The translations under genes and the position numbers were made by a program. The notes under the pieces are model-generated. The model did no database searches. It saw nothing but the letters and a program-made list of their open reading frames with translations, and was not told where the DNA came from. A DNA stretch of 64,000 nt. Origin: the human T2T-CHM13v2.0 reference genome, Homo sapiens. Below are positions 10,308 through 62,564 of the stretch, one piece after another. Within the stretch, counting starts at the first letter, position 1. Every line of letters begins with the position of its first letter. The stretch lies in the NCBI RefSeq assembly GCF_009914755.1, contig NC_060929.1. The stretch is one strand, 5' to 3'.

Positions 10308-11195
10308 GTGAGGTCAATTGTCAGCCTGATGGGAAATACTGGGAGGCTAACTTCAAATAGTAAGTAGGTGCTCTCCTCTTCCTTCTTAGGTGGGAGCCTT
10401 GGAAGGAATTAATTCTTGCTTTATGTGAAATGGAATACCCAGTACTGCCCACTAATATGAAAAAGCTAATTATAGTCTCTGAAACTGGATCAGATTACTT
10501 TGGTGGTTAGATCTTTCAATCTATTGCTGCTTTGTATAAAAAAAAAAAGAAGAAGAAGAAATAAAAAGGAAACTACATGTGTAGTAGAAAGGGCACAACA
10601 CTTCAGTCACTTAGCCTGCGTTAAAACCCCAGCAGTGTCACTTGCTGTTTGGAGACCTTGGACAAATTACTTAACCTAAAATGAGATTTGAACTAAATAG
10701 ATTTTTTTTCTATGATACAGTTTTGTGAGCCTGTGATGGTAGGGGAAGGGGAAGGAAGAAAGGATCTCATACATGTCACACTTGTCTTTTTCCAGGTGAA
10801 TGATTTTCCTAATTTTCAAGGTCTGATGCCCTTTTTATAAGCTTCCAGAGCACCTGAGGTGACTTGCACCAAGTCATTTAGCATCATGCAATTTTAAATG
10901 TCTCTTTTTATCACCTAGGAGATTGGGAGCAAGTTGATGGCAAGGACTGTGCTCTGTCTGAGTTCTGGCACATAGTAGGTTATCTGTTTACTAAATAAAT
11001 GAATAAACAAGTAAAAAAGTTTTATATTTAACCACATGAATTATAGAGTACTTACTGAGCTACATCTACACAGCTGGTACTGCTCTAAGTGGCCCATAGC
11101 AATGTCAGAGGGACTGAGTTCAATAAAATTTCTGAAAACAGTGTTGTCAGCATTACAATCTTGGTAAGTTTCAAGTTCTTTTCCCTGTTCTTCAG

Positions 11196-32296: not shown

Positions 32297-33180
32297 GTGC
32301 TAGTTTTCTATGGTTGCGATAACAAATTAGCACACTTTAGTGGCTTAAAACAACATAAACTTCTCATTGTTCAACTCCCACTTATGAGAACACATGGACA
32401 CAGGGAGGGGAACATCACACACCGGGGCCTGTTTGGGGACTGGGGGAAAGGGGAGGGAGAGCATGCAAATATCTAATATTAGCCCCCTCATGCAAATATC
32501 TAATGCATGCAAATATCTAATATTATTAGCCCCCTCATGCAAATATCTAATGCATGAGGGGGCTAAAAACCTAGGTGACGGGTTGATAGGTGCAGCAAAC
32601 CACCATGGCACATGTATACCTATGTAACAAACCTGCATGCTCTGAACATGTATCCCAGAACTTAAAGTAAAATAAAACAAAATAAAATAAAATAAAAAAC
32701 AATGAAAACAACAACAATAACATAAACTTCTTATCTTATTTCATAGGTTAGAAGGCTAAAAAGGATCTCACTGGGCTAAAATCAAAGGGTTGGCAGAGCT
32801 GTATTCCTTTTCTGGAGTTTGCAGGCGACAATCCATCTCTTTTTCTCCAAATCTAGAGGCCGTCCATGTTCCTTGGTTCTTGGACCCCCCTTCTCTGTCT
32901 ACAAAGCCAGCAATGTTATATCTCTCTGACTGTTCTTCTGTGGTTACATCTCCCTCTCACTCTGTCTTCCATCTCGCTCTTGCAGTTTTAAGGACTGATC
33001 CTTGTGATTGAGCCTTACACTGAGCCCATTATGGCAATACAGGATAATCTCTTCATTTCAAGGTTATTAACTTAATTATATCTGAAAAGCCCTTTTTGCC
33101 ATGTAAGGCAGCATATTCTCAGGTCTCAAGTATTAAGACTTAGACGTATTTGGTGGAACGGTATTATTCTGTATACCACA
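32297..33180 (-). mobile_element. MaLR LTR (MLT1-like), split by an L1PA insertion
   Basis: tagtggcttaaaacaacataaa|L1|ttatctta...gggctaaaatcaaagggttggcagagctg...ggtattattctgtataccaca. Confidence 0.75.
32365..32718 (+). mobile_element. 5'-truncated, 5'-inverted L1PA 3' end with an internal rearrangement
   Basis: TSD AACATAAACTTCT at 32352-32364 and 32719-32731; the first 24 nt are the reverse complement of L1 ctcataagtgggagttgaacaatg (twin-priming signature); ends tatcccagaacttaaagtaaaataaaa. Confidence 0.9.
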
Positions 33181-45979: not shown

Positions 45980-46097
45980 ATTCAAGGACATTTTAAAAAT
46001 GTTTATGAACTTCAAAGCATTATACCTACGTAAATAACATTCAAGGACATTTTAAAAATGTTTATGAACTTCAAAGCATTATACCTATGTAAATAAC
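45980..46097. repeat. 59-bp tandem duplication (2 copies, 1 mismatch)
   Basis: 45980-46038 versus 46039-46097, differing only at cctacg/cctatg. Confidence 0.95.
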
Positions 46098-46467
46098 AAT
46101 CAATATTGTGAGTTTGGTTATAATTTAATTGGAAAAGTAAAAATGAGAATTATAGCAACTTTCTAGATGAGAGTCTTAAGTCTATTATATTAAGGAAAAA
46201 TAAAGACCTTTTAGGATCATATTTTTCTGGATAAGAGTATAGTAACAGCATCTATGAAAGTTGATAGCATTGCCACAAATATATTATCATGAAAATTCCA
46301 ACAATCAGAACTGATTAGCTTATAAAAATATTCTTAGATTTTTTTTTAGGTATAAGAAAACAGTGTTAGATTTGCTAATGTTTAGAATCGCAGAAATACT
46401 TGGTTAAAGACAATTCAGTAACAACCCTTGAAAAATTACCCTATCTTTTTTTTTAATTATTCTGCAG

Positions 46468-46540
46468 TGATCGAGAAGCTAATGAAAGAAAAAAGAAAGA
46501 TGAAGAGAAATCAAGTAGCAAGCCCTCAAATAATGCAAAG
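46468..46540 (+). CDS. SPINK5: SPINK5 exon 28, linker (73 nt)
   Basis: ctgcag|TGATCGA...GCAAAG|gttatt; DREANERKKKDEEKSSSKPSNNAK. Confidence 0.97.
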
Positions 46541-46625
46541 GTTATTTATTAAAGGATACCAAAATAACCATTTTACTTTTCACCTTCAGAATTTTGCATT
46601 CTTCTCCAGCTTTGGGAATAATAAA
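46541..46625 (+). terminator. SPINK5: Intron-28 read-through (V-I-Y-stop) and intronic polyA signal, giving the short 13-domain LEKTI isoform
   Basis: GTT ATT TAT TAA at 46541-46552; AATAAA at 46620-46625; matches the recalled 916-aa isoform. Confidence 0.85.
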
Positions 46626-47226
46626 TATATTAATATCTTAACTTCAAAGAAAATTGATTTTTCTTGTCTTGTCACTTTGTATCATAACAAGATTTTTGGG
46701 GGTTTGGGGGTTTGATACCTTTTTTGATTTTGTAGAAAATTCTCTGAGAGTGTGTGTCTATTATTGTTTTAGTCTTTCCTCCTTGGGAGAAATATGGATT
46801 GAAAAGTAGAGGGTAACATTCTTTACCAACTCAACTGCATGCTTATCTTTGACACTTTAAGTGTGAAACAAGGCTTTGGGTAGCTTGCTGATGTTTATTT
46901 TAATAATTCAGGCAATATAAACCAATCTAAGTCTCCCTTTTAGCTTCCCTTCTGTTTTCACCAGATGATTCTATCAGCATTAAAGAATCAGCAGTGTGCA
47001 TGCGTGATGCTTTCTTTTCTATTTATTTTTCAAGACTACAAAGAAGACATCTTTATTCAATTCTTTAACAGTAACAATCACATTTGTAGAGTTAGATCCC
47101 TGAGCAATTGTCCTTTTGTCAAAAGCATGCTTCATGGGGAAAATGGGGAAAGGAAGGATGGATGAACGGGAGAAAAAAACAGGAAGGTCTATCAAGTGTT
47201 GTTTTATGTTTCCCTACATTTTTCAG

Positions 47227-47316
47227 GACCAGTGCAGACAGGTTCAGAATGAAGCGGAGGATGCAAAATTTAGACAACCTGGGCGTTCCTTGGCCTCTGT
47301 TGCCAGGATGAGTACA
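47227..47316 (+). CDS. SPINK5: SPINK5 alternative 90-nt cassette exon of the long isoform (30-aa insert between D13 and D14)
   Basis: tttcag|GACCAGTGC...AGTACA|gtgagt; DQCRQVQNEAEDAKFRQPGRSLASVARMST; phase 0-0. Confidence 0.92.
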
Positions 47317-55499: not shown

Positions 55500-55590
55500 G
55501 ATACGCCAAACAAATACACACATCCGCAGTACAGGGAAGTGTGAGGAGAGCAGCACCCCAGGAACCACCGCAGCCAGCATGCCCCCGTCT
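55500..55590 (+). CDS. SPINK5: SPINK5 exon 32 (91 nt), end of D15
   Basis: ttttag|GATACGC...CCGTCT|gtaagt; IRQTNTHIRSTGKCEESSTPGTTAASMPPS. Confidence 0.97.
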
Positions 55591-58500
55591 GTAAGTACAT
55601 AAGTAGACTGGCCTCCATGGTTACGTTGTGAGGAGCACTGGGTTCTGGTTTTGTTCTCTTCCACTGAGTAATGGACATTTATCTGGCCAGAGAGGTGACA
55701 CTAGGTCAGGTGACCCAGAATTGGTCACATTTTCACTATAAGGATAATTAAGTAATTACTGAAATAAGTGGAAATAATGTAGCAGTTAATATTTTAAAAT
55801 ATTTAATGGGTCCATTAATAGATTGTTTATGAGCAATGTCTCCAACATAACGTTACTTATTTCAGGATAGGTTTTGTTTTCTGTGATCTATAATAAAAAG
55901 ATGAGACAGAGACCAAGAGAGGTCAGAGAGTGACAGAGTTGGATTTAAACAATTTCTATATAATGCCCATATTCTTGAACTTTACATTGTATTAAATTAT
56001 TTCCCAGCATTAAAAGTTGACCAATTTCATTTAAACTCCTGAAAGGATGTTTCAACGTACGTTACTGAATTTAACATTCTCCCTGGTGGCTATTTGAATA
56101 GTCATCCTCAGGGAGATGGTATGTAACATGAAAAAATAGGAATTTTCAAATAAGAGAAAAATGTTTTGTTATGGGATAAATGTGAGTGCAAATTTCAGTT
56201 TTTGCTGTGCTTATACGAGACTCTTGGCAAATCACATAAATACTCTAAACCAAATATCCCAATGACCTATGAAAATATTCAATAAATACTGACTTTTATG
56301 CATTTGGCACAGTGTCTGAAAAATTAATGTCACTATTATTATTATGCCTAAGACCAAAGTATGAATTTAGAAAAAGAGTCGAAAGTATGAACTTTTTCTA
56401 ACAGACCATGGTATAGTGCTTATTTATTTTTAATAAATTATTGTCAATTGTAGTTTGATAAAATTATGTGTAATAAACAATATTTTAATGCATTATATTT
56501 AATAAAGCTATTTATTATTATTCACATTCTCTTTGCTCCATTCCACTGCCACAAAAAGCTTTGGCAATAATGGAATCAGAAACTATTCAGCCAGATTTGA
56601 AAATCTTAGTCAAGCAATACTAGATAAGGCCATATTAAAAACGTCTGCCCAACAATCTTTGTTAAGGGAAATTGTGAAAACAAGAATCATAAGCTAGAGT
56701 CTTCCTAGTTTCACATTAGCAGCTGAAAGCAATGTAGAGGAAGCCGAGGACTGGAATGAAATCAGAAGACCTTATCTTTCTCATGTGGGCTTGACAAAGT
56801 TATTTACCACCCATTTAAAGACCTCTACTCTGGTTCTTTACCAGGATCCATAAAAAGGGAGTTTAAACTTTAACTCTAGTCCCTATATTGTGTTTGCTGT
56901 CTTATTATATAGAAATTCTTAGTAGTTTGCTCCCATTTTATTGACAGAATATACTGTTCCCCGTCCTCACAAACTCACCTTTACATATATCTCAGGAGAG
57001 AAAGGTCAAAATAGCTTTATGCCAGTCCAATAGACCACACCTTAGACCACACTTCCCTGTAACTCTCATCCTGTGTAGGCAACTTGGAAAAACTACTTTA
57101 TAAAGAACTTGCCATAGGTTTATACTGATAAGATGTATTTCTTTAAATAATGAAGAATGTTGCCGGGGCTTATCACACAGGGTGTTGTAAAAGAGTGCCG
57201 TTCTTCCATTTCTGAGTGTATGCTTTCCACTGGAGTTGCATAGCAGGCATTAATAATGACAGAAATTATTATGCTGTTAGTTAATGAAACAAAAATTAAC
57301 GTGTCCTGGACACAGGTGGAACTTCAGTCCCTGTGTAAGATTCAAGTGTGTGATCTCGGGTACAGTTGGTACAGACTGGTCATGGCCTAGCATTGTTCTG
57401 ATGACTAGTAAGGATGTATATATTGGGGTGGAAGCCTGTTGTTTGAACTTTATTTCTGGGTGGAAGTTTCTCTAAGAAAGTCTGGAATCTCAAGAATAGA
57501 ATAAGAGTCCAGGCAGTCACAAGTTTCTTGGAAAAGTAGGTTGAGTATCTTGGAACCCACTCTTTTGTTACTAAGTACATAATACTTTCTATTATGCAAT
57601 AACTATTATACAGTAACTACTAAGATTTACATAGGTCTTTAGAGTTTTATGTACATTTTCTGTTTGTACTCTTACAATAGTCATTTGATTAGGGCAGGGA
57701 TCACTGTCTTTCCCATTTTACAGAAAATCATCCTGGGGGAAACTGTCACTTATTAAAGTCCCTTAGTATAATATCTTGGGTTCAATGTAGATATCCTGAC
57801 TTCAATTCCAGTGCTCTACTACCATTCCTTAGTTGTCAGGAGATTCTGAAAACTAAGTGCTGTTGAGAAGGCATTATCTCAATTAAAAGATGATTTGCTA
57901 TATTGGAAGGAAATTTCTATATTAAGAAAAATACAAATATTATTTTGTGAGATAAATGACTATTCTTATCTATATCTGTCAATTTCATGACAGATTTTCA
58001 AGGATTCAGGAAAACCGAAGCTTGCTACTTTCAAACCAAAGAAAACCTCCTGGAGTTGATATAGGCAATGAAGTGGAGATTTGAGTTTGGAATGACAGTG
58101 CTGCTCGTGCCCCAGGTGGTACTAGTTGAAGATGTGCAGTTATGTGAAAGAAGACTTCCTGAGGCCCTCGCCCCCTTTAAGATTATTTTTAAATATTCAT
58201 TTAATGTTTTAAAGGCTGATTTCAAATATATGGATGAGTCAGGCAAAGGAAGACAGCTGATTACATTCTAGTGGTCTACAACAAACTATAGTAGAAAAAC
58301 ATTCATATTACAGGAAGTGAATTCAAGTTATGACCTAACATGACAGTGGCAAGTTACTAAACTTCTCTGAAGCTCAATTTCCTCATCTGCAAAATGGTGC
58401 TAATGACACCTACTTCTTTTTTATCAGCATGAAGGCTGCATGTAATCAAAGGCAGAATTAAGCCATGTTCATATTTGTGTCCACCTCAACACGTAGTACA

Positions 58501-58685
58501 TACTAGGTGCTCAATATTTGTTGTATCAAACTGGATAAAATGTGAAAGTGATTTTAAATTGCTACTTCTTTGCAGAATGCAGGATCTATGGATTTCTTTG
58601 ATTAAGATGTAGCTATAAATATACAGCCCACATTTCTGCAATATCTCTGGGTTCTAGCATCTAACCTACCCATCTTCTCTTCTAG

Positions 58686-58694
58686 GACGAATGA
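58686..58694 (+). CDS. SPINK5: SPINK5 exon 33 coding part (D-E-stop)
   Basis: ctaac branch motif, pyrimidine tract, ttctag|GAC GAA TGA. Confidence 0.95.
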   Translation, partial: DE

Positions 58695-58964
58695 CAGGAA
58701 GATTGTTGAAAGCCATGAGGGAAAAAATAAACCCCAGCTCTGAATCACCTACCTTCACCATCTGTATATACAAAGAATTCTTCGGAGCTTGTCTTATTTG
58801 CTATAGAAAACAATACAGAGCTTTTGGGAATGGACTCACTGATTTTCAGTCTTTTCCATCTCTTTCCTCCTAGACTCTGTGATCTGAGGGTATAAAGACA
58901 TGTCCACCAAGTCTGAGCCCTCAAAATGTCCTGATTACAATGCTGTCTGTCCAACTGCCTGTTC

Positions 58965-59054
58965 AATAAAAGTAAACTCAGCAGAACACCCTTTCTGGGA
59001 TTTCTTTGTCACTATCTGGATAATAGATATTTGCTTTTAAAGAAACTGAATAAA
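58965..59054 (+). terminator. SPINK5: Two tandem polyadenylation signals of SPINK5
   Basis: AATAAA at 58965-58970 and 59049-59054, each followed by U/GU-rich sequence. Confidence 0.85.
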
Positions 59055-59439
59055 CTCCTCTACCCTTTTGTCTTTTTGTGTTGCTAAACCCATTGGTGGA
59101 CAGAGAATGTTCACTTTTTTCCTGCTTAAGTTGCTGTCATAGCTGAGAAGGACTGTCTAGAAGAGAGGTGGGGAGATATGGGTTCCCATCAGCCAACAGC
59201 TATACAAAGTTAAACTAGCTATAAATCAGCTTCATCTTAACTATTCATTACCATACCAGCTCCCCTTTCTACATTTTCATGAATGGGATAACTGCCTCTC
59301 AGTTATTTAGGTCCCATCCAAACACATAAACCAGTAAGTTTTCATGTCTATTCATTAAGTTACCTCCTGACAATTTCCTTGTACCCATAATCTGGGAAGA
59401 ACTAAGAAAATTAATTACCAATTTGTGTAAGCCTCTAAA

Positions 59440-59722
59440 GTGGCACTCTCCAATAGAAATGTAATTTAAGCCATATATGCAATTTTAAATTTTCTAGAGG
59501 CTACAAATAATTAATAATTATAAAAATATTCATTTTAATAATACATTTCATTTAGCTTAAGATATCAAAACTATTAATGTAATCAATATAAACTTTTAAA
59601 TTTACTAAGTCTTTGATTTTGGTGTATATTTTACACTTACAGCACATCTCAATGTGGACCAGCCACATTTCAAGTACTCAAGAGATACATGTGGATAGAG
59701 GTCACCGTATTAGGCAACGCAG
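59440..59722. mobile_element. MER33/MER3-like hAT DNA transposon remnant
   Basis: tccaatagaaat...tatattttacacttacagcacatctcaat...agccacatttcaagtactcaa. Confidence 0.7.
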
Positions 59723-60041
59723 TGCTGCCATGAGCTAATGGACGTGGGAAATCAGAGGAGGAATGCAGACACTAGGTAGGGGTGGATGAAATGCTTGTAA
59801 GCACCTTCCTCTATGCTGAAACTCTGTAAATCCCTACTCTACCTAGTCGCTTTGTTCACTTGAAAATTCTGGGCTAGTTCTGAAAACACTCCATAGGGAG
59901 AAATTATATGGAAAATCCATTTTGCTGCAAGATGTTCTCAGCTCCAGAAGAACTAGCCTGATGGGACGGACTTACTTGGATTTGGGAAGTTAATTTGTTA
60001 TTTTTCTCCTCTTTTTTTTAAGTCTCTACTAGCTCAATTAA

Positions 60042-60113
60042 AATATCTCTGGGTTCTAGCATCTAACCTACCCATCTTCTCTTCTAGGATGAATGACAGG
60101 AAGATTGTTGAAA
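60042..60113 (+). repeat. 72-bp duplicate of the intron 32/exon 33 junction (58640-58711)
   Basis: 71/72 identical by eye; the only difference is GAC>GAT. Confidence 0.96.
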
Positions 60114-61221
60114 AATATCACCAAACCCTATTTTTCCTTTGTAACTGAGTGAAAATAAATTATCCCTTATGCTGCATTCTTTTCTATGTTACATTAAGAA
60201 AAAAAAAAGAAGGGCCAATAAGTAATTTTTTCAAGCATGAGAAATTCGGAGTAATTCCTGTTGAATTATTATTATTATTTGGCAATTTCAGGATGTACAG
60301 GATGGGTTCAGAGTGCCCATGACATATGAGATTTTATCTTCTTCCTGTTCACTTATAGGAAATCCAGAAAAACTCTTTTTCTGGCTAAAACATATGTTTT
60401 TCTGAGAAGGTGTTTTGTTATGTCATTTTGAATATTTGATTAGAATATAAACACAAACCCTTTATATTTATTTTATTATTATTAATATACTCAAAAGACA
60501 TTCTTATCCTGTCCTTAAGACTTAACCAATTCTTGGTAATCACTCCGAGTACAGAGAAAGAGTTTGGCTTAGGGATAGAGTGGGGTAGAGGATATAATAG
60601 TCTGGAATGGGATGAGACAAGGAAATGAGGAGAAGCGCAGTGACCTCAGGAGTAAGAATCAAAGGTGGAGGGCAGGGTGGGTGCAGAGGTCAGGAATAGA
60701 ACATGACCAAGGAAAATAAAGTAGAAAATACTGTGAGGCTCAAGGATTAGCGTTAAGAGAGTGAATGTGTAGAACACATTGCTTGTGATTTAAAAAGCTA
60801 AAAGTTGATTTATTTTGGGGTGTATACAAATTAGGAGTGTATATAAAATGGAATCTATGTCAAAATGGTAACAAATAGCTTCACTAAATATCAAGTAAAC
60901 TAATCTTTGGGTTACTTAAGTTATATCCTGATGGACAGGAGGTAAATGAAAACCAGACCTATCTCACTGAGGCTTCAAAACTAGATCTAAAATTCTAAAC
61001 CAGAAGGTGATGCTGAGATGGGACTAAAGAAAGCCAAAATACTTCTGTCAGCCCCATCTATCCACTACTACCAAATAGTTATGCATTTCTCTGTATAATT
61101 TGATCTTCAGATTTCATTTTGCATTAAGGGTGTTCAGAGATCTATCCCTTTGAAACTCTTATTTTCTCATATTAGAAGTCCTCCTGAAGCCTTCCCATTT
61201 CTTTCAGGCTTCAGAAATGCC

Positions 61222-61840
61222 TAAGGATGTGGAGAAAAGAGCACGTTTACATACTTTAGATGAAAATATAAATTATTTTAAACTCTGTGGAAAACAGTAT
61301 GTAGACATCTCAAAAAACTAAAAATAGAACTACCATTTGACCCAGCAATTCCATTACTAAGCATCTACCTAGAGGAAAATAAATCATTATATTAAAAAGA
61401 CACCTGCACTAGGATGTTTATCACAGCACAATTCACAGTAGCAACATCATGGAACCAACCTAAGTATCCATCAACAGTTGATTGGATTAAAAATGTGTTT
61501 TATATGCACCACGGAATTCAATGCAGCCATGAAAAGGAAGGAAGTCATGTCCTTTGCAGCAACATGGATGGAGTTGGAGGCCATCATCCTAAGTGAACTA
61601 ACTCAGAAACAGAAAATCAAAGATTGCATATTCTCAGTTATAAGTGGCACTCATAGACATAAAGACAGATAATAAACTCTGAGGACTCCAAAAGGAGCGA
61701 TGGGAGAGGGATGAGGGTCGAAAAATTACCTATTCGATATAATGTTCACTATTTGGGTGATAGGTACACTAGAAGTCTACCATTATACAATATACCCATA
61801 TAATAACATGCACATTTACTCATTGAATCTAAAATTAGAA
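61222..61840 (+). mobile_element. L1 (L1PB/L1MA-type) 3' end
   Basis: gaactaccatttgacccagcaattccattact...gcagcaacatggatggagttggaggcc...ttgaatctaaaat. Confidence 0.9.
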
Positions 61841-62564
61841 ATGAGACAAAACTTCAAGTTACCTCTGGAACCAACAGCAAATAATTCTGTAGTTGATTAG
61901 TAATTCCTGCCATAGGCACAGGGAGAAGTAAAAAAGGCAGGAACATCAGGTATTTGCCATCCCACAATAGGGCAGGTACTTAGGAACTGAGCAGATCTAA
62001 GCTCAAATCCTGACTTTGTCACTCACTAACTCTATGACAATGAAAATGCTACTTTATCTCTCTGGGTCTTCATTTCTTCTATAAAAGGGGGGCTAATAAT
62101 TTCTACCTTACAGGTTACAATTAGGATTATATTATATAGTTTATGAATGCCGTAAACTGAAGATCTCATATACATTAAGAGCTCAATAAATGCTTATCAT
62201 TATTTAATATAAAAACAGTAAGGTGTCAGAATTTTCCCTATTCAATAAGCTCTCTAATTCAATTAATTTCCCTGTGATTTTTTTTCTGTTTTAACCTCCA
62301 AAATATTTTTGACAACATAAATTTAAAAAAATTATAATTTTAGAAAATACAAAAGTATGCATGGTTTCTAATTTTCTTGAAACATACCATTTTCTTCACC
62401 AGTTTTTAATCTTTTAAGTAAGCACTCGTGTCCTGTGGATATCTTGGATCAGGATTTGCTGTTGTTTATTTGTACCTAATTTTCACTCTAATAAAATGGA
62501 TTGGATACTATAGCACAGTATTAAAGAAAAAAAAAGAAAGAAACTAAGGAGAGCACTTATCTAG

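What the first reader, a model, noticed from the sequence alone, without database searches (positions are those of the whole stretch)
60040..60200. Duplicated terminal-exon acceptor with its own polyA signal: candidate alternative last exon encoding the same C-terminus
Seen: 60042-60113 copies 58640-58711 (71/72 nt). The copy holds a complete 3' splice module: branch motif CTAAC, pyrimidine tract, TAG|, then GAT GAA TGA (D-E-stop; the one change is synonymous). An AATAAA follows at 60154-60159, then U-rich sequence. The copy is bounded by the 8-bp direct repeat AAAATATC (60040-60047, 60112-60119), overlapping the donor's ends, as expected for a microhomology-templated insertion. Inference: splicing exon 32 to 60088 would give the identical protein with a ~85-nt 3' UTR instead of ~290-380 nt, changing miRNA/RBP control and backing up exon 33 acceptor mutations. 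It must compete with the upstream polyA sites, so use may be minor. I do not recall this being described.
Basis: partly seen in the sequence, partly recalled or inferred. Interest (0 to 1): 0.8.

Follow-up and report, generated by a model that had tools for sequence, protein, structure and literature searches.

The report
Copied SPINK5 last-exon acceptor, probably silent
A 72-base piece spanning the start of the last SPINK5 exon was copied once to a spot 1.4 kb downstream of the gene, most likely as a small DNA-copying accident that leaves an intact-looking but probably unused splice site.

Summary
Window 60042-60113 copies 58640-58711 at 71 of 72 bases. The one difference is a CpG-to-TpG change that leaves Asp unchanged. 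These are the only two copies in the 3.1-Gb T2T genome. The ends are sharp and there is no hidden homology around them. An 8-bp direct repeat, AAAATATC, brackets the copy (chance about 1e-4). It is therefore a small templated insertion with a target-site duplication. It shows 6-nt and 2-3-nt microhomology at its two junctions. The most likely origin is a DNA template switch to a site 1.4 kb upstream. An L1-endonuclease-type event on SPINK5 pre-mRNA is the main rival, because the target reads TT|AAAA. Joining exon 32 to 60088 would give the same C-terminus...MPPSDE*. The AATAAA at 60154 is old flanking DNA, not part of the copy, and 9.8% of positions have one that close. Three AATAAA hexamers and an identical acceptor lie upstream and meet the polymerase first. 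None of the 4 RefSeq transcripts uses the copy. No RNA data and no second assembly were available, so use, age and polymorphism remain untested. My verdict is a real, ordinary mutational scar. Use as an alternative last exon is possible but unlikely.

The parts
58640..58711 (+). Donor: last 46 nt of SPINK5 intron 32 plus first 26 nt of exon 33 (acceptor AG 58684-85, GAC GAA TGA 58686-94)
   Evidence: exon coordinates from the hub's RefSeq table
60042..60113 (+). Copy, 71 of 72 identical to the donor; net inserted DNA is 64 nt (60048-60111) if the 8-bp repeat is counted as target
60040..60047 (+). Left copy of the 8-bp direct repeat AAAATATC (target-site duplication); its last 6 nt are also homologous to the donor start (microhomology). 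It is preceded by TT, so the target reads TT|AAAA
60112..60119 (+). Right copy of AAAATATC; its first 2 A overlap the donor's terminal GAAA (2-3 nt microhomology)
60063..60087 (+). Copied 3' splice module: CTAAC (60063-67), pyrimidine tract, TAG ending at 60087
   Evidence: 16 of 20 pyrimidines, Y at -3, no upstream AG, CTRAC motif; within-gene PWM 12.0 bits against 10.1 for the native site
60088..60096 (+). GAT GAA TGA: Asp-Glu-stop in the frame left by exon 32
60154..60159 (+). AATAAA in pre-existing flanking DNA (not copied), with CA at 60175-76 and a T-rich stretch 60177-60190 downstream
58726..59054 (+). Competing native signals: AATAAA at 58726, 58965 and 59049 in exon 33, all upstream of the copy

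Best explanation
This is a single small templated insertion, a mutational scar.

Origin. DNA synthesis at the site now numbered 60047 left its template with a 3' end reading ...AAAATATC. It re-primed on the 6-nt match AATATC located 1402 nt upstream, at the SPINK5 intron 32 / exon 33 boundary. It copied about 66 nt, then returned through a 2-3-nt A match to a point 8 nt behind where it had left. That back-step duplicated AAAATATC. This is microhomology-mediated template switching of the MMBIR / FoSTeS type.

Consequence. An intact copy of the terminal acceptor plus Asp-Glu-stop now lies 1 kb beyond the annotated end of the gene, and happens to lie 66 nt upstream of an AATAAA. I judge it silent or used only at trace level. 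The identical native acceptor and three AATAAA hexamers are transcribed first, and together they define the real last exon.

Shown: the copy, its uniqueness, its sharp ends, the flanking repeat, the microhomologies, the reading frame and the signals. Inferred: the polymerase path and the lack of use.
For: Copy at 71 of 72, with 2 places in the whole genome.

No homology beyond the 72 nt. Flank identity is 0.20-0.33 over 10-300 nt. The 1402 diagonal scores 0.2713 against a mean of 0.2714 (sd 0.0098) over 1001 diagonals, with the copy excluded.

The 8-bp flanking repeat has a chance of 1.1e-4 per position. The microhomologies can be read directly.

Donor and target lie on the same strand, 1.4 kb apart. 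That fits local template switching. Germline microhomology-templated insertions of 25 bp or more number about 100 per person, 103 and 99 in two individuals (passages of PMC8421209).

For silence: the competing AATAAA at 58726, 58965 and 59049; the mutual stimulation of terminal 3' splice site and poly(A) signal (passages of PMC5546720); none of the 4 RefSeq transcripts uses the copy (hub table); and 14 other unannotated AG sites out of 4193 score at least as high as the copy on a within-gene PWM, so good acceptor-like sites do go unused here.
Against: The target reads TT|AAAA and carries a true target-site duplication. Both are hallmarks of L1 endonuclease and fit a simple template switch less neatly (class definitions in PMC5546720... 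see correction: class definitions are in PMC5110952).

The acceptor is as good as the native one: it is identical from -46 to +2, and scores 12.0 against 10.1 bits on the PWM. A plausible AATAAA, CA and T-rich arrangement follows it. Polymerase II commonly runs past poly(A) sites (established knowledge, not tested here), so some use cannot be excluded.

No expression data, no other human assembly and no ape sequence could be consulted.
Confidence: 0.6

Rival explanations
1. Same insertion, different origin: an L1 ORF2p-type event (target-primed reverse transcription). The endonuclease nicked the bottom strand at 5'-TTTT/AA-3'. The T-run primed on the internal AAA of unspliced SPINK5 pre-mRNA. 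The cDNA 5' end then joined the top-strand end ...AATATC through 6-nt microhomology. A second nick 8 nt away produced the duplication.
For: Target context caaTT|AAAAtatc; TTAAAA occurs at only 0.0017 per position. The 8-bp duplication meets the 5-bp-or-more criterion for class 1 templated insertions, and the preferred site is 5'-TTTT/A-3' (PMC5110952, abstract and class section). The copied piece is on the transcribed strand, in sense orientation, and includes intron sequence, so it would come from pre-mRNA. The 6-nt microhomology sits exactly at the 3' end of the left repeat, where a top-strand nick would leave it.
Against: There is no poly(A) tract: at most 1 A beyond the target's own AAAA, against 10-40 in class 1. 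There is no AATAAA inside the copied 72 nt. A source only 1.4 kb from the target would be a large coincidence for RNA mobilised in trans. Once the donor ends in GAAA, the A-run at the junction is needed by the template-switch model too, so only the preceding TT is extra evidence.
Confidence: 0.25
2. One reading: the copy works as a genuine alternative last exon. Exon 32 splices to 60088 and the transcript is polyadenylated after the AATAAA at 60154. The result is LEKTI mRNA with the same protein and a 3' UTR of about 80-90 nt, at a level that matters for regulation.
For: The frame and C-terminus are identical. The acceptor is identical from -46 to +2 and scores no worse than the native one. 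AATAAA is followed by CA 16-17 nt later and then a T-rich stretch. The stop lies in the last exon, so nonsense-mediated decay is not expected (inference).
Against: The same acceptor plus three AATAAA are met first. The copy is unannotated in the 4 RefSeq transcripts (hub table). It is absent from the three isoform classes in print, and the SPINK5 searches found nothing. The AATAAA is a 1-in-10 coincidence. One difference in 72 nt says nothing about constraint. There is no protein-level benefit.
Confidence: 0.07
3. An old tandem duplication of the SPINK5 3' end, of which only a 72-nt patch stays similar because of gene conversion.
For: One weak, nearly collinear patch: 58955-58998 against 60341-60384, 32 of 44, offset 1386. 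It was reached by 1 of 300 shuffles and 1 of 84 real-sequence controls. An upstream patch was reached by 2 of 300 shuffles and by 2 or 4 of 84 controls, but it lies 176 nt off the diagonal.
Against: Identity on the 1402 diagonal equals background (z = 0.00). The immediate flanks are at 20-33% identity. Gene conversion does not create an 8-bp flanking direct repeat. The target region 59700-60500 has no other relative in the genome.
Confidence: 0.03
4. An assembly artefact, or a variant private to the CHM13 haplotype.
For: Only one assembly could be examined.
Against: The structure is clean: a single copy, a precise flanking repeat, and one CpG transition that implies time since the event. The two copies lie only 1.4 kb apart in unique sequence, which is easy to assemble (inference). 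Being polymorphic would not make it unreal.
Confidence: 0.05

Closest known systems
Germline microhomology-templated insertions (MMBIR / FoSTeS-type template switches; 'MMB-TI' of PMC8421209)
   Same: An insertion copied from a nearby template, microhomology at both junctions, return to the original template, and no gross rearrangement. Such events are common as germline variants.
   Different: The template lies 1.4 kb away in direct orientation, and the return is 8 nt behind the departure point, giving a neat target-site duplication. The copied piece happens to be a complete terminal splice acceptor.
Templated sequence insertion polymorphisms, class 1 (L1 ORF2p-mediated) and class 2 (break patch) (PMC5110952)
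   Same: A short unique genomic or transcribed sequence inserted elsewhere with the donor left intact. It shares the 5-bp-or-more duplication and the TTTT/A-type site with class 1, and junction microhomology with class 2.
   Different: No poly(A) tract and no internal AATAAA, unlike class 1. It has a duplication, unlike class 2. The template is local, not distant. Whether it is polymorphic is unknown.
Alternative last exons and skipped terminal exons (for example calcitonin/CGRP; recalled, not from a call)
   Same: Two acceptor-plus-poly(A) modules in series downstream of one donor.
   Different: Here the two acceptors are identical, the coding output is identical, and there is no evidence that the distal module is used.
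Known SPINK5 / LEKTI isoforms (full-length, +30 aa, short; Tartaglia-Polcini 2006 as cited in PMC12695657)
   Same: They arise from alternative pre-mRNA processing in the 3' part of SPINK5.
   Different: They involve 46468-46653 and 47227-47316 (hub table) and change the protein. None involves sequence beyond 59088. The 2006 paper itself was not held.

Membership tests
Microhomology-mediated templated insertion (MMBIR / FoSTeS type) | Inserted sequence matches a template elsewhere, with the donor intact | tested here: met
   71 of 72 identity; the donor is still in place within the gene
Microhomology-mediated templated insertion (MMBIR / FoSTeS type) | Microhomology at both junctions | tested here: met
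   AATATC (6 nt) at the left junction and AA(A) (2-3 nt) at the right
Microhomology-mediated templated insertion (MMBIR / FoSTeS type) | Template nearby on the same chromosome | tested here: met
   1402 nt upstream on the same strand; no other copy in the genome
Microhomology-mediated templated insertion (MMBIR / FoSTeS type) | Arose during replication or break-induced synthesis | not testable with these tools
   Inferred from the junction anatomy only
Class 1 templated sequence insertion (L1 ORF2p) | Target-site duplication of at least 5 bp | tested here: met
   8 bp, AAAATATC (criterion)
Class 1 templated sequence insertion (L1 ORF2p) | Insertion at a 5'-TTTT/A-3' type site | tested here: met
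   The top strand reads TT|AAAA at 60038-60043
Class 1 templated sequence insertion (L1 ORF2p) | Non-templated tract of 10-40 A at the 3' end | tested here: not met
   Five A in all, of which four belong to the target repeat and 3 match the donor
Class 1 templated sequence insertion (L1 ORF2p) | AATAAA 10-20 nt upstream of the A tract, within the insert | tested here: not met
   No hexamer variant is listed between 60042 and 60113
Class 2 templated sequence insertion (break patch) | No target-site duplication; junctions with end-joining features | tested here: not met
   Microhomology is present, but so is an 8-bp duplication
Alternative last exon | Functional 3' splice site in frame with the upstream exon | tested here: inconclusive
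   The sequence is intact and in frame; use was not tested
Alternative last exon | Poly(A) signal with a downstream element | tested here: inconclusive
   AATAAA at 60154, CA at 60175, then a T-rich stretch; 9.8% of positions have an AATAAA that close by chance
Alternative last exon | Transcripts that carry the junction and the 3' end | not testable with these tools
   No RNA-seq or 3'-end data were available. None of the 4 RefSeq transcripts uses it (hub table), and the literature searches found none
Tandem exon / segmental duplication | Homology extends through the flanks of the duplicated exon | tested here: not met
   Flanks at 20-33% identity; diagonal z = 0.00

The most novel reading that the evidence does not exclude
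The copied acceptor is used in vivo. There are two possible routes. In one, a fraction of SPINK5 transcripts that escape the native poly(A) sites splice exon 32 directly to 60088 and end near 60180. That would give full-length LEKTI from an mRNA with a 3' UTR of about 85 nt that lacks the native UTR's regulatory sites. In the other, read-through RNA splices from the GTAAGT at 59334 to 60088. If the insertion also proves to be human-specific or polymorphic, it would be a natural experiment in which a single template-switch mutation created a new terminal exon. It would also offer a direct test of how two identical acceptors compete.
Probability: 0.08. Interest if true: 0.5.

Novelty: new member of a known kind. 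Interest (0 to 1): 0.22.

Why it matters
If the copy is silent, it is one more example of the short templated insertions that litter human genomes. Its main practical value is as a mapping caveat: reads covering the exon 32-33 junction or the intron 32 acceptor have a 71-of-72 twin 1.4 kb away. This could confuse variant calling at the last SPINK5 acceptor in Netherton syndrome diagnostics. If the copy is used, it would show a terminal exon born in one step from a template switch, and would supply LEKTI mRNA with a much shorter 3' UTR. The junction anatomy (a duplication at TT|AAAA with no A-tail, and a local template) is also a useful borderline case between replication-based and L1-based models of small insertions.

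Tried and rejected
1. Hidden wider duplication. Sensitive blastn of the flanks gave best hits of 31.1 and 29.7 bits, reached by 1 and 2 of 300 dinucleotide shuffles. They were also reached by 1, 2, 1 and 4 of 84 real unrelated window segments. Identity on the 1402 diagonal equals background. I rejected this as an explanation of the copy; the 44-nt patch is kept as a side note.

2. Empty site from paralogous repeats. The target region 59700-60500 has no other match in the genome apart from the 72-nt donor, so no paralogue shows the pre-insertion state.

3. Known RNA families in 57500-62000. There were 2 sub-threshold matches, neither at the copy: 27.5 bits against a gathering score of 117, and 24.1 against 40.

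5. The original isoform paper (PubMed 16374478) is not held. I used what PMC12695657 says of it.

6. Literature. The searches 'SPINK5' + 'alternative polyadenylation' (4 papers), 'SPINK5' / 'LEKTI isoforms' / 'alternative' and 'SPINK5' / 'UTR' / 'polyadenylation signal' gave no description of a downstream duplicate or last exon. PMC6111597 lists SPINK5 among 'alternate terminator' events in a table without coordinates. That event most likely reflects the known short isoform, but it could not be resolved. Supplements were not opened.

7. Age or polymorphism. No other human or primate sequence is reachable with these tools. One CpG transition in 72 nt is not a usable clock.

8. I did not scan the prokaryote or viral collections for stray human DNA carrying the junction, because the yield would be negligible.

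Full report
What is there. Window 60042-60113 repeats 58640-58711 at 71 of 72 positions, in direct orientation, 1402 nt apart. The donor spans the last 46 nt of SPINK5 intron 32 and the first 26 nt of exon 33 (exon coordinates from the hub's RefSeq table). The single difference is 58688 C against 60090 T. It turns GAC into GAT (both Asp) and is a CpG-to-TpG transition, the commonest kind of substitution (the rate statement is established knowledge). A 42-nt core of the repeat is found twice in the window with up to 3 mismatches allowed, and never in 100 shuffles. A search of the whole 3.1-Gb assembly finds only these two places. Among all non-self pairs in the window at 93% identity or more (8 pairs), this is the longest. 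It is also the only dispersed pair longer than 31 nt; the two others above that length are tandem repeats.

It is an isolated patch, not the visible part of a larger duplication. Identity in the 10-300 nt next to either end is 0.20-0.33, which is background for this AT-rich DNA. With the copy masked, identity along the 1402 diagonal over 2 kb is 0.2713, against 0.2714 +/- 0.0098 for 1001 diagonals. Sensitive blastn of the flanks gave one 44-nt, 73% patch (58955-58998 against 60341-60384), 16 nt off the diagonal, and one upstream patch 176 nt off it. These were reached by 1 and 2 of 300 shuffles, and by 1, 2, 1 and 4 of 84 real unrelated segments of the window. At 73% identity the downstream patch cannot belong to the same event as a 99% copy. 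I treat it as marginal and unexplained.

Junction anatomy. The copy sits between two copies of AAAATATC, at 60040-47 and 60112-19. An 8-nt direct repeat at a spacing of 60-84 nt occurs at 1.1e-4 per position here. The last six bases of the left copy (AATATC) are also the first six of the donor. The first two A of the right copy overlap the donor's terminal GAAA. The simplest pre-insertion site is therefore ...CAATT-AAAATATC-ACC..., with 64 nt of net new DNA (60048-60111), an 8-bp target-site duplication, and 6-nt and 2-3-nt microhomologies. The target region has no other relative in the genome, so the empty site could not be checked against paralogues. No other assembly or species was available.

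How it arose. Two models fit.

(a) A DNA template switch. A 3' end reading ...AAAATATC leaves its template and re-primes on AATATC 1.4 kb upstream on the same strand. It copies about 66 nt and returns through A-microhomology 8 nt behind its departure point. Local template, same orientation and microhomology at both junctions are the marks of MMBIR / FoSTeS-type events. Such templated insertions are frequent germline variants, 103 and 99 events of 25 bp or more in two people (passages of PMC8421209).

(b) An L1 ORF2p-type event. The target reads TT|AAAA, the complement of the 5'-TTTT/A-3' nick site, and there is a true duplication of 5 bp or more. These are two of the class 1 criteria of Onozawa and Aplan (PMC5110952; abstract and class section read). 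The 6-nt microhomology lies exactly where a top-strand nick would leave a 3' end. Against (b): there is no A-tract of 10-40 and no AATAAA inside the insert, and the source lies only 1.4 kb away, which is not expected for RNA mobilised in trans. Once the donor ends in GAAA, the A-run is required by model (a) too, so only the preceding TT is extra evidence for (b).

I put (a) at about 0.6, (b) at about 0.25, and other routes at the rest. The insertion meets neither TSIP class in full. It fails class 1 on the A-tract and the internal signal, and fails class 2 on having a duplication.

What it could do. Exon 32 (donor TCT|GTAAGT at 55590/55591) joined to 60088 gives ...MPPSDE*, identical to the native join. 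The copied acceptor is identical from -46 to +2. It keeps CTAAC with its branch A 21 nt from the AG, 16 of 20 pyrimidines, Y at -3 and no upstream AG. Only 3 sites in the window have that full set: the native site, the copy and one unannotated site at 10390. A crude PWM built from the other 28 SPINK5 acceptors scores the copy at 12.0 bits and the native site at 10.1, because GAT is the commoner exon start in this gene. Of 4193 AG sites, 14 other unannotated ones score at least as high as the copy. An AATAAA at 60154-59 is followed by CA at 60175-76 and a T-rich stretch.

Why I think it is silent or nearly so.
1. The AATAAA is not part of the copy. It is old flanking DNA, and 9.8% of + strand positions here have an AATAAA 40-120 nt downstream, or 16.4% if ATTAAA is counted. 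The 'module' is a 1-in-10 coincidence, not a design.
2. The identical native acceptor is transcribed 1.4 kb earlier and is followed by AATAAA at 58726, 58965 and 59049. The terminal 3' splice site and the poly(A) signal stimulate each other (passages of PMC5546720; the titles of its references 108-110 were seen in its reference list only). The first complete module should therefore be defined and cleaved before, or while, the second emerges.
3. None of the 4 RefSeq transcripts extends beyond 59088 (hub table). The three LEKTI isoform classes in print differ at 46468-46653 and 47227-47316, not here (passages of PMC12695657; the 2006 source paper was not held).
4. Three SPINK5 searches found no mention. 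One paper lists SPINK5 among 'alternate terminator' events without coordinates, most simply the known short isoform.
5. There is no protein change, and exon 33 encodes only Asp-Glu-stop, so neither a selective benefit nor a meaningful 'backup' role is evident.

None of this is a measurement. Polymerase II does run beyond poly(A) sites (established knowledge), and trace use is quite possible.

Other points. A CCA|GTAAGT donor-like site at 59334 lies between the annotated gene end and the copied acceptor. A read-through RNA could splice 59333 to 60088. That would place the stop codon 639 nt upstream of an exon junction and so be prone to nonsense-mediated decay (inference). No Rfam family matches the copy.

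Verdict. The origin reading (microhomology-templated insertion) is supported and refined: there is a target-site duplication, and an L1-type rival remains open. The functional reading is untested and, on the anatomy, unlikely. I file it as a new member of a known kind of mutation, not found described in the searches named above. Interest is low to modest, with a practical note on read mapping at the last SPINK5 acceptor.

Noticed in passing
window 59334-59339 (+): CCA|GTAAGT donor-like site between the RefSeq end of SPINK5 (59088) and the copied acceptor (60088). A read-through transcript could remove 59334-60087 as a 754-nt 3' UTR intron, which would make it prone to nonsense-mediated decay.
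   Followed up: no
window 58955-58998 and 60341-60384 (+): Weak 44-nt similarity (32 of 44), nearly collinear with the copy (offset 1386 against 1402). It was reached by 1 of 300 shuffles and 1 of 84 real-sequence controls. It is too diverged to belong to the same event and remains unexplained.
   Followed up: partly
window 58726-58731 (+): An AATAAA only 32 nt after the SPINK5 stop codon, upstream of the two hexamers at 58965 and 59049. If used, it would already give a very short 3' UTR.
   Followed up: no
window 45980-46103 and 32461-32556 (+): Two short tandem duplications in SPINK5 introns: 65-nt units offset by 59 nt at 97% identity, and roughly 50-nt units offset by 44 nt at 94%.
   Followed up: no
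window 61318-61421 (-): Sub-threshold match to the mir-6130 precursor family (27.5 bits against a gathering score of 117, E 0.026), inside a stretch masked as repeat. Probably repeat-derived.
   Followed up: no
window 60088-60090 against SPINK5 acceptors: Many SPINK5 Kazal-domain exons start with GAT or GAG, so the copy's GAT scores slightly better than the native GAC on a within-gene acceptor PWM (12.0 against 10.1 bits).
   Followed up: partly
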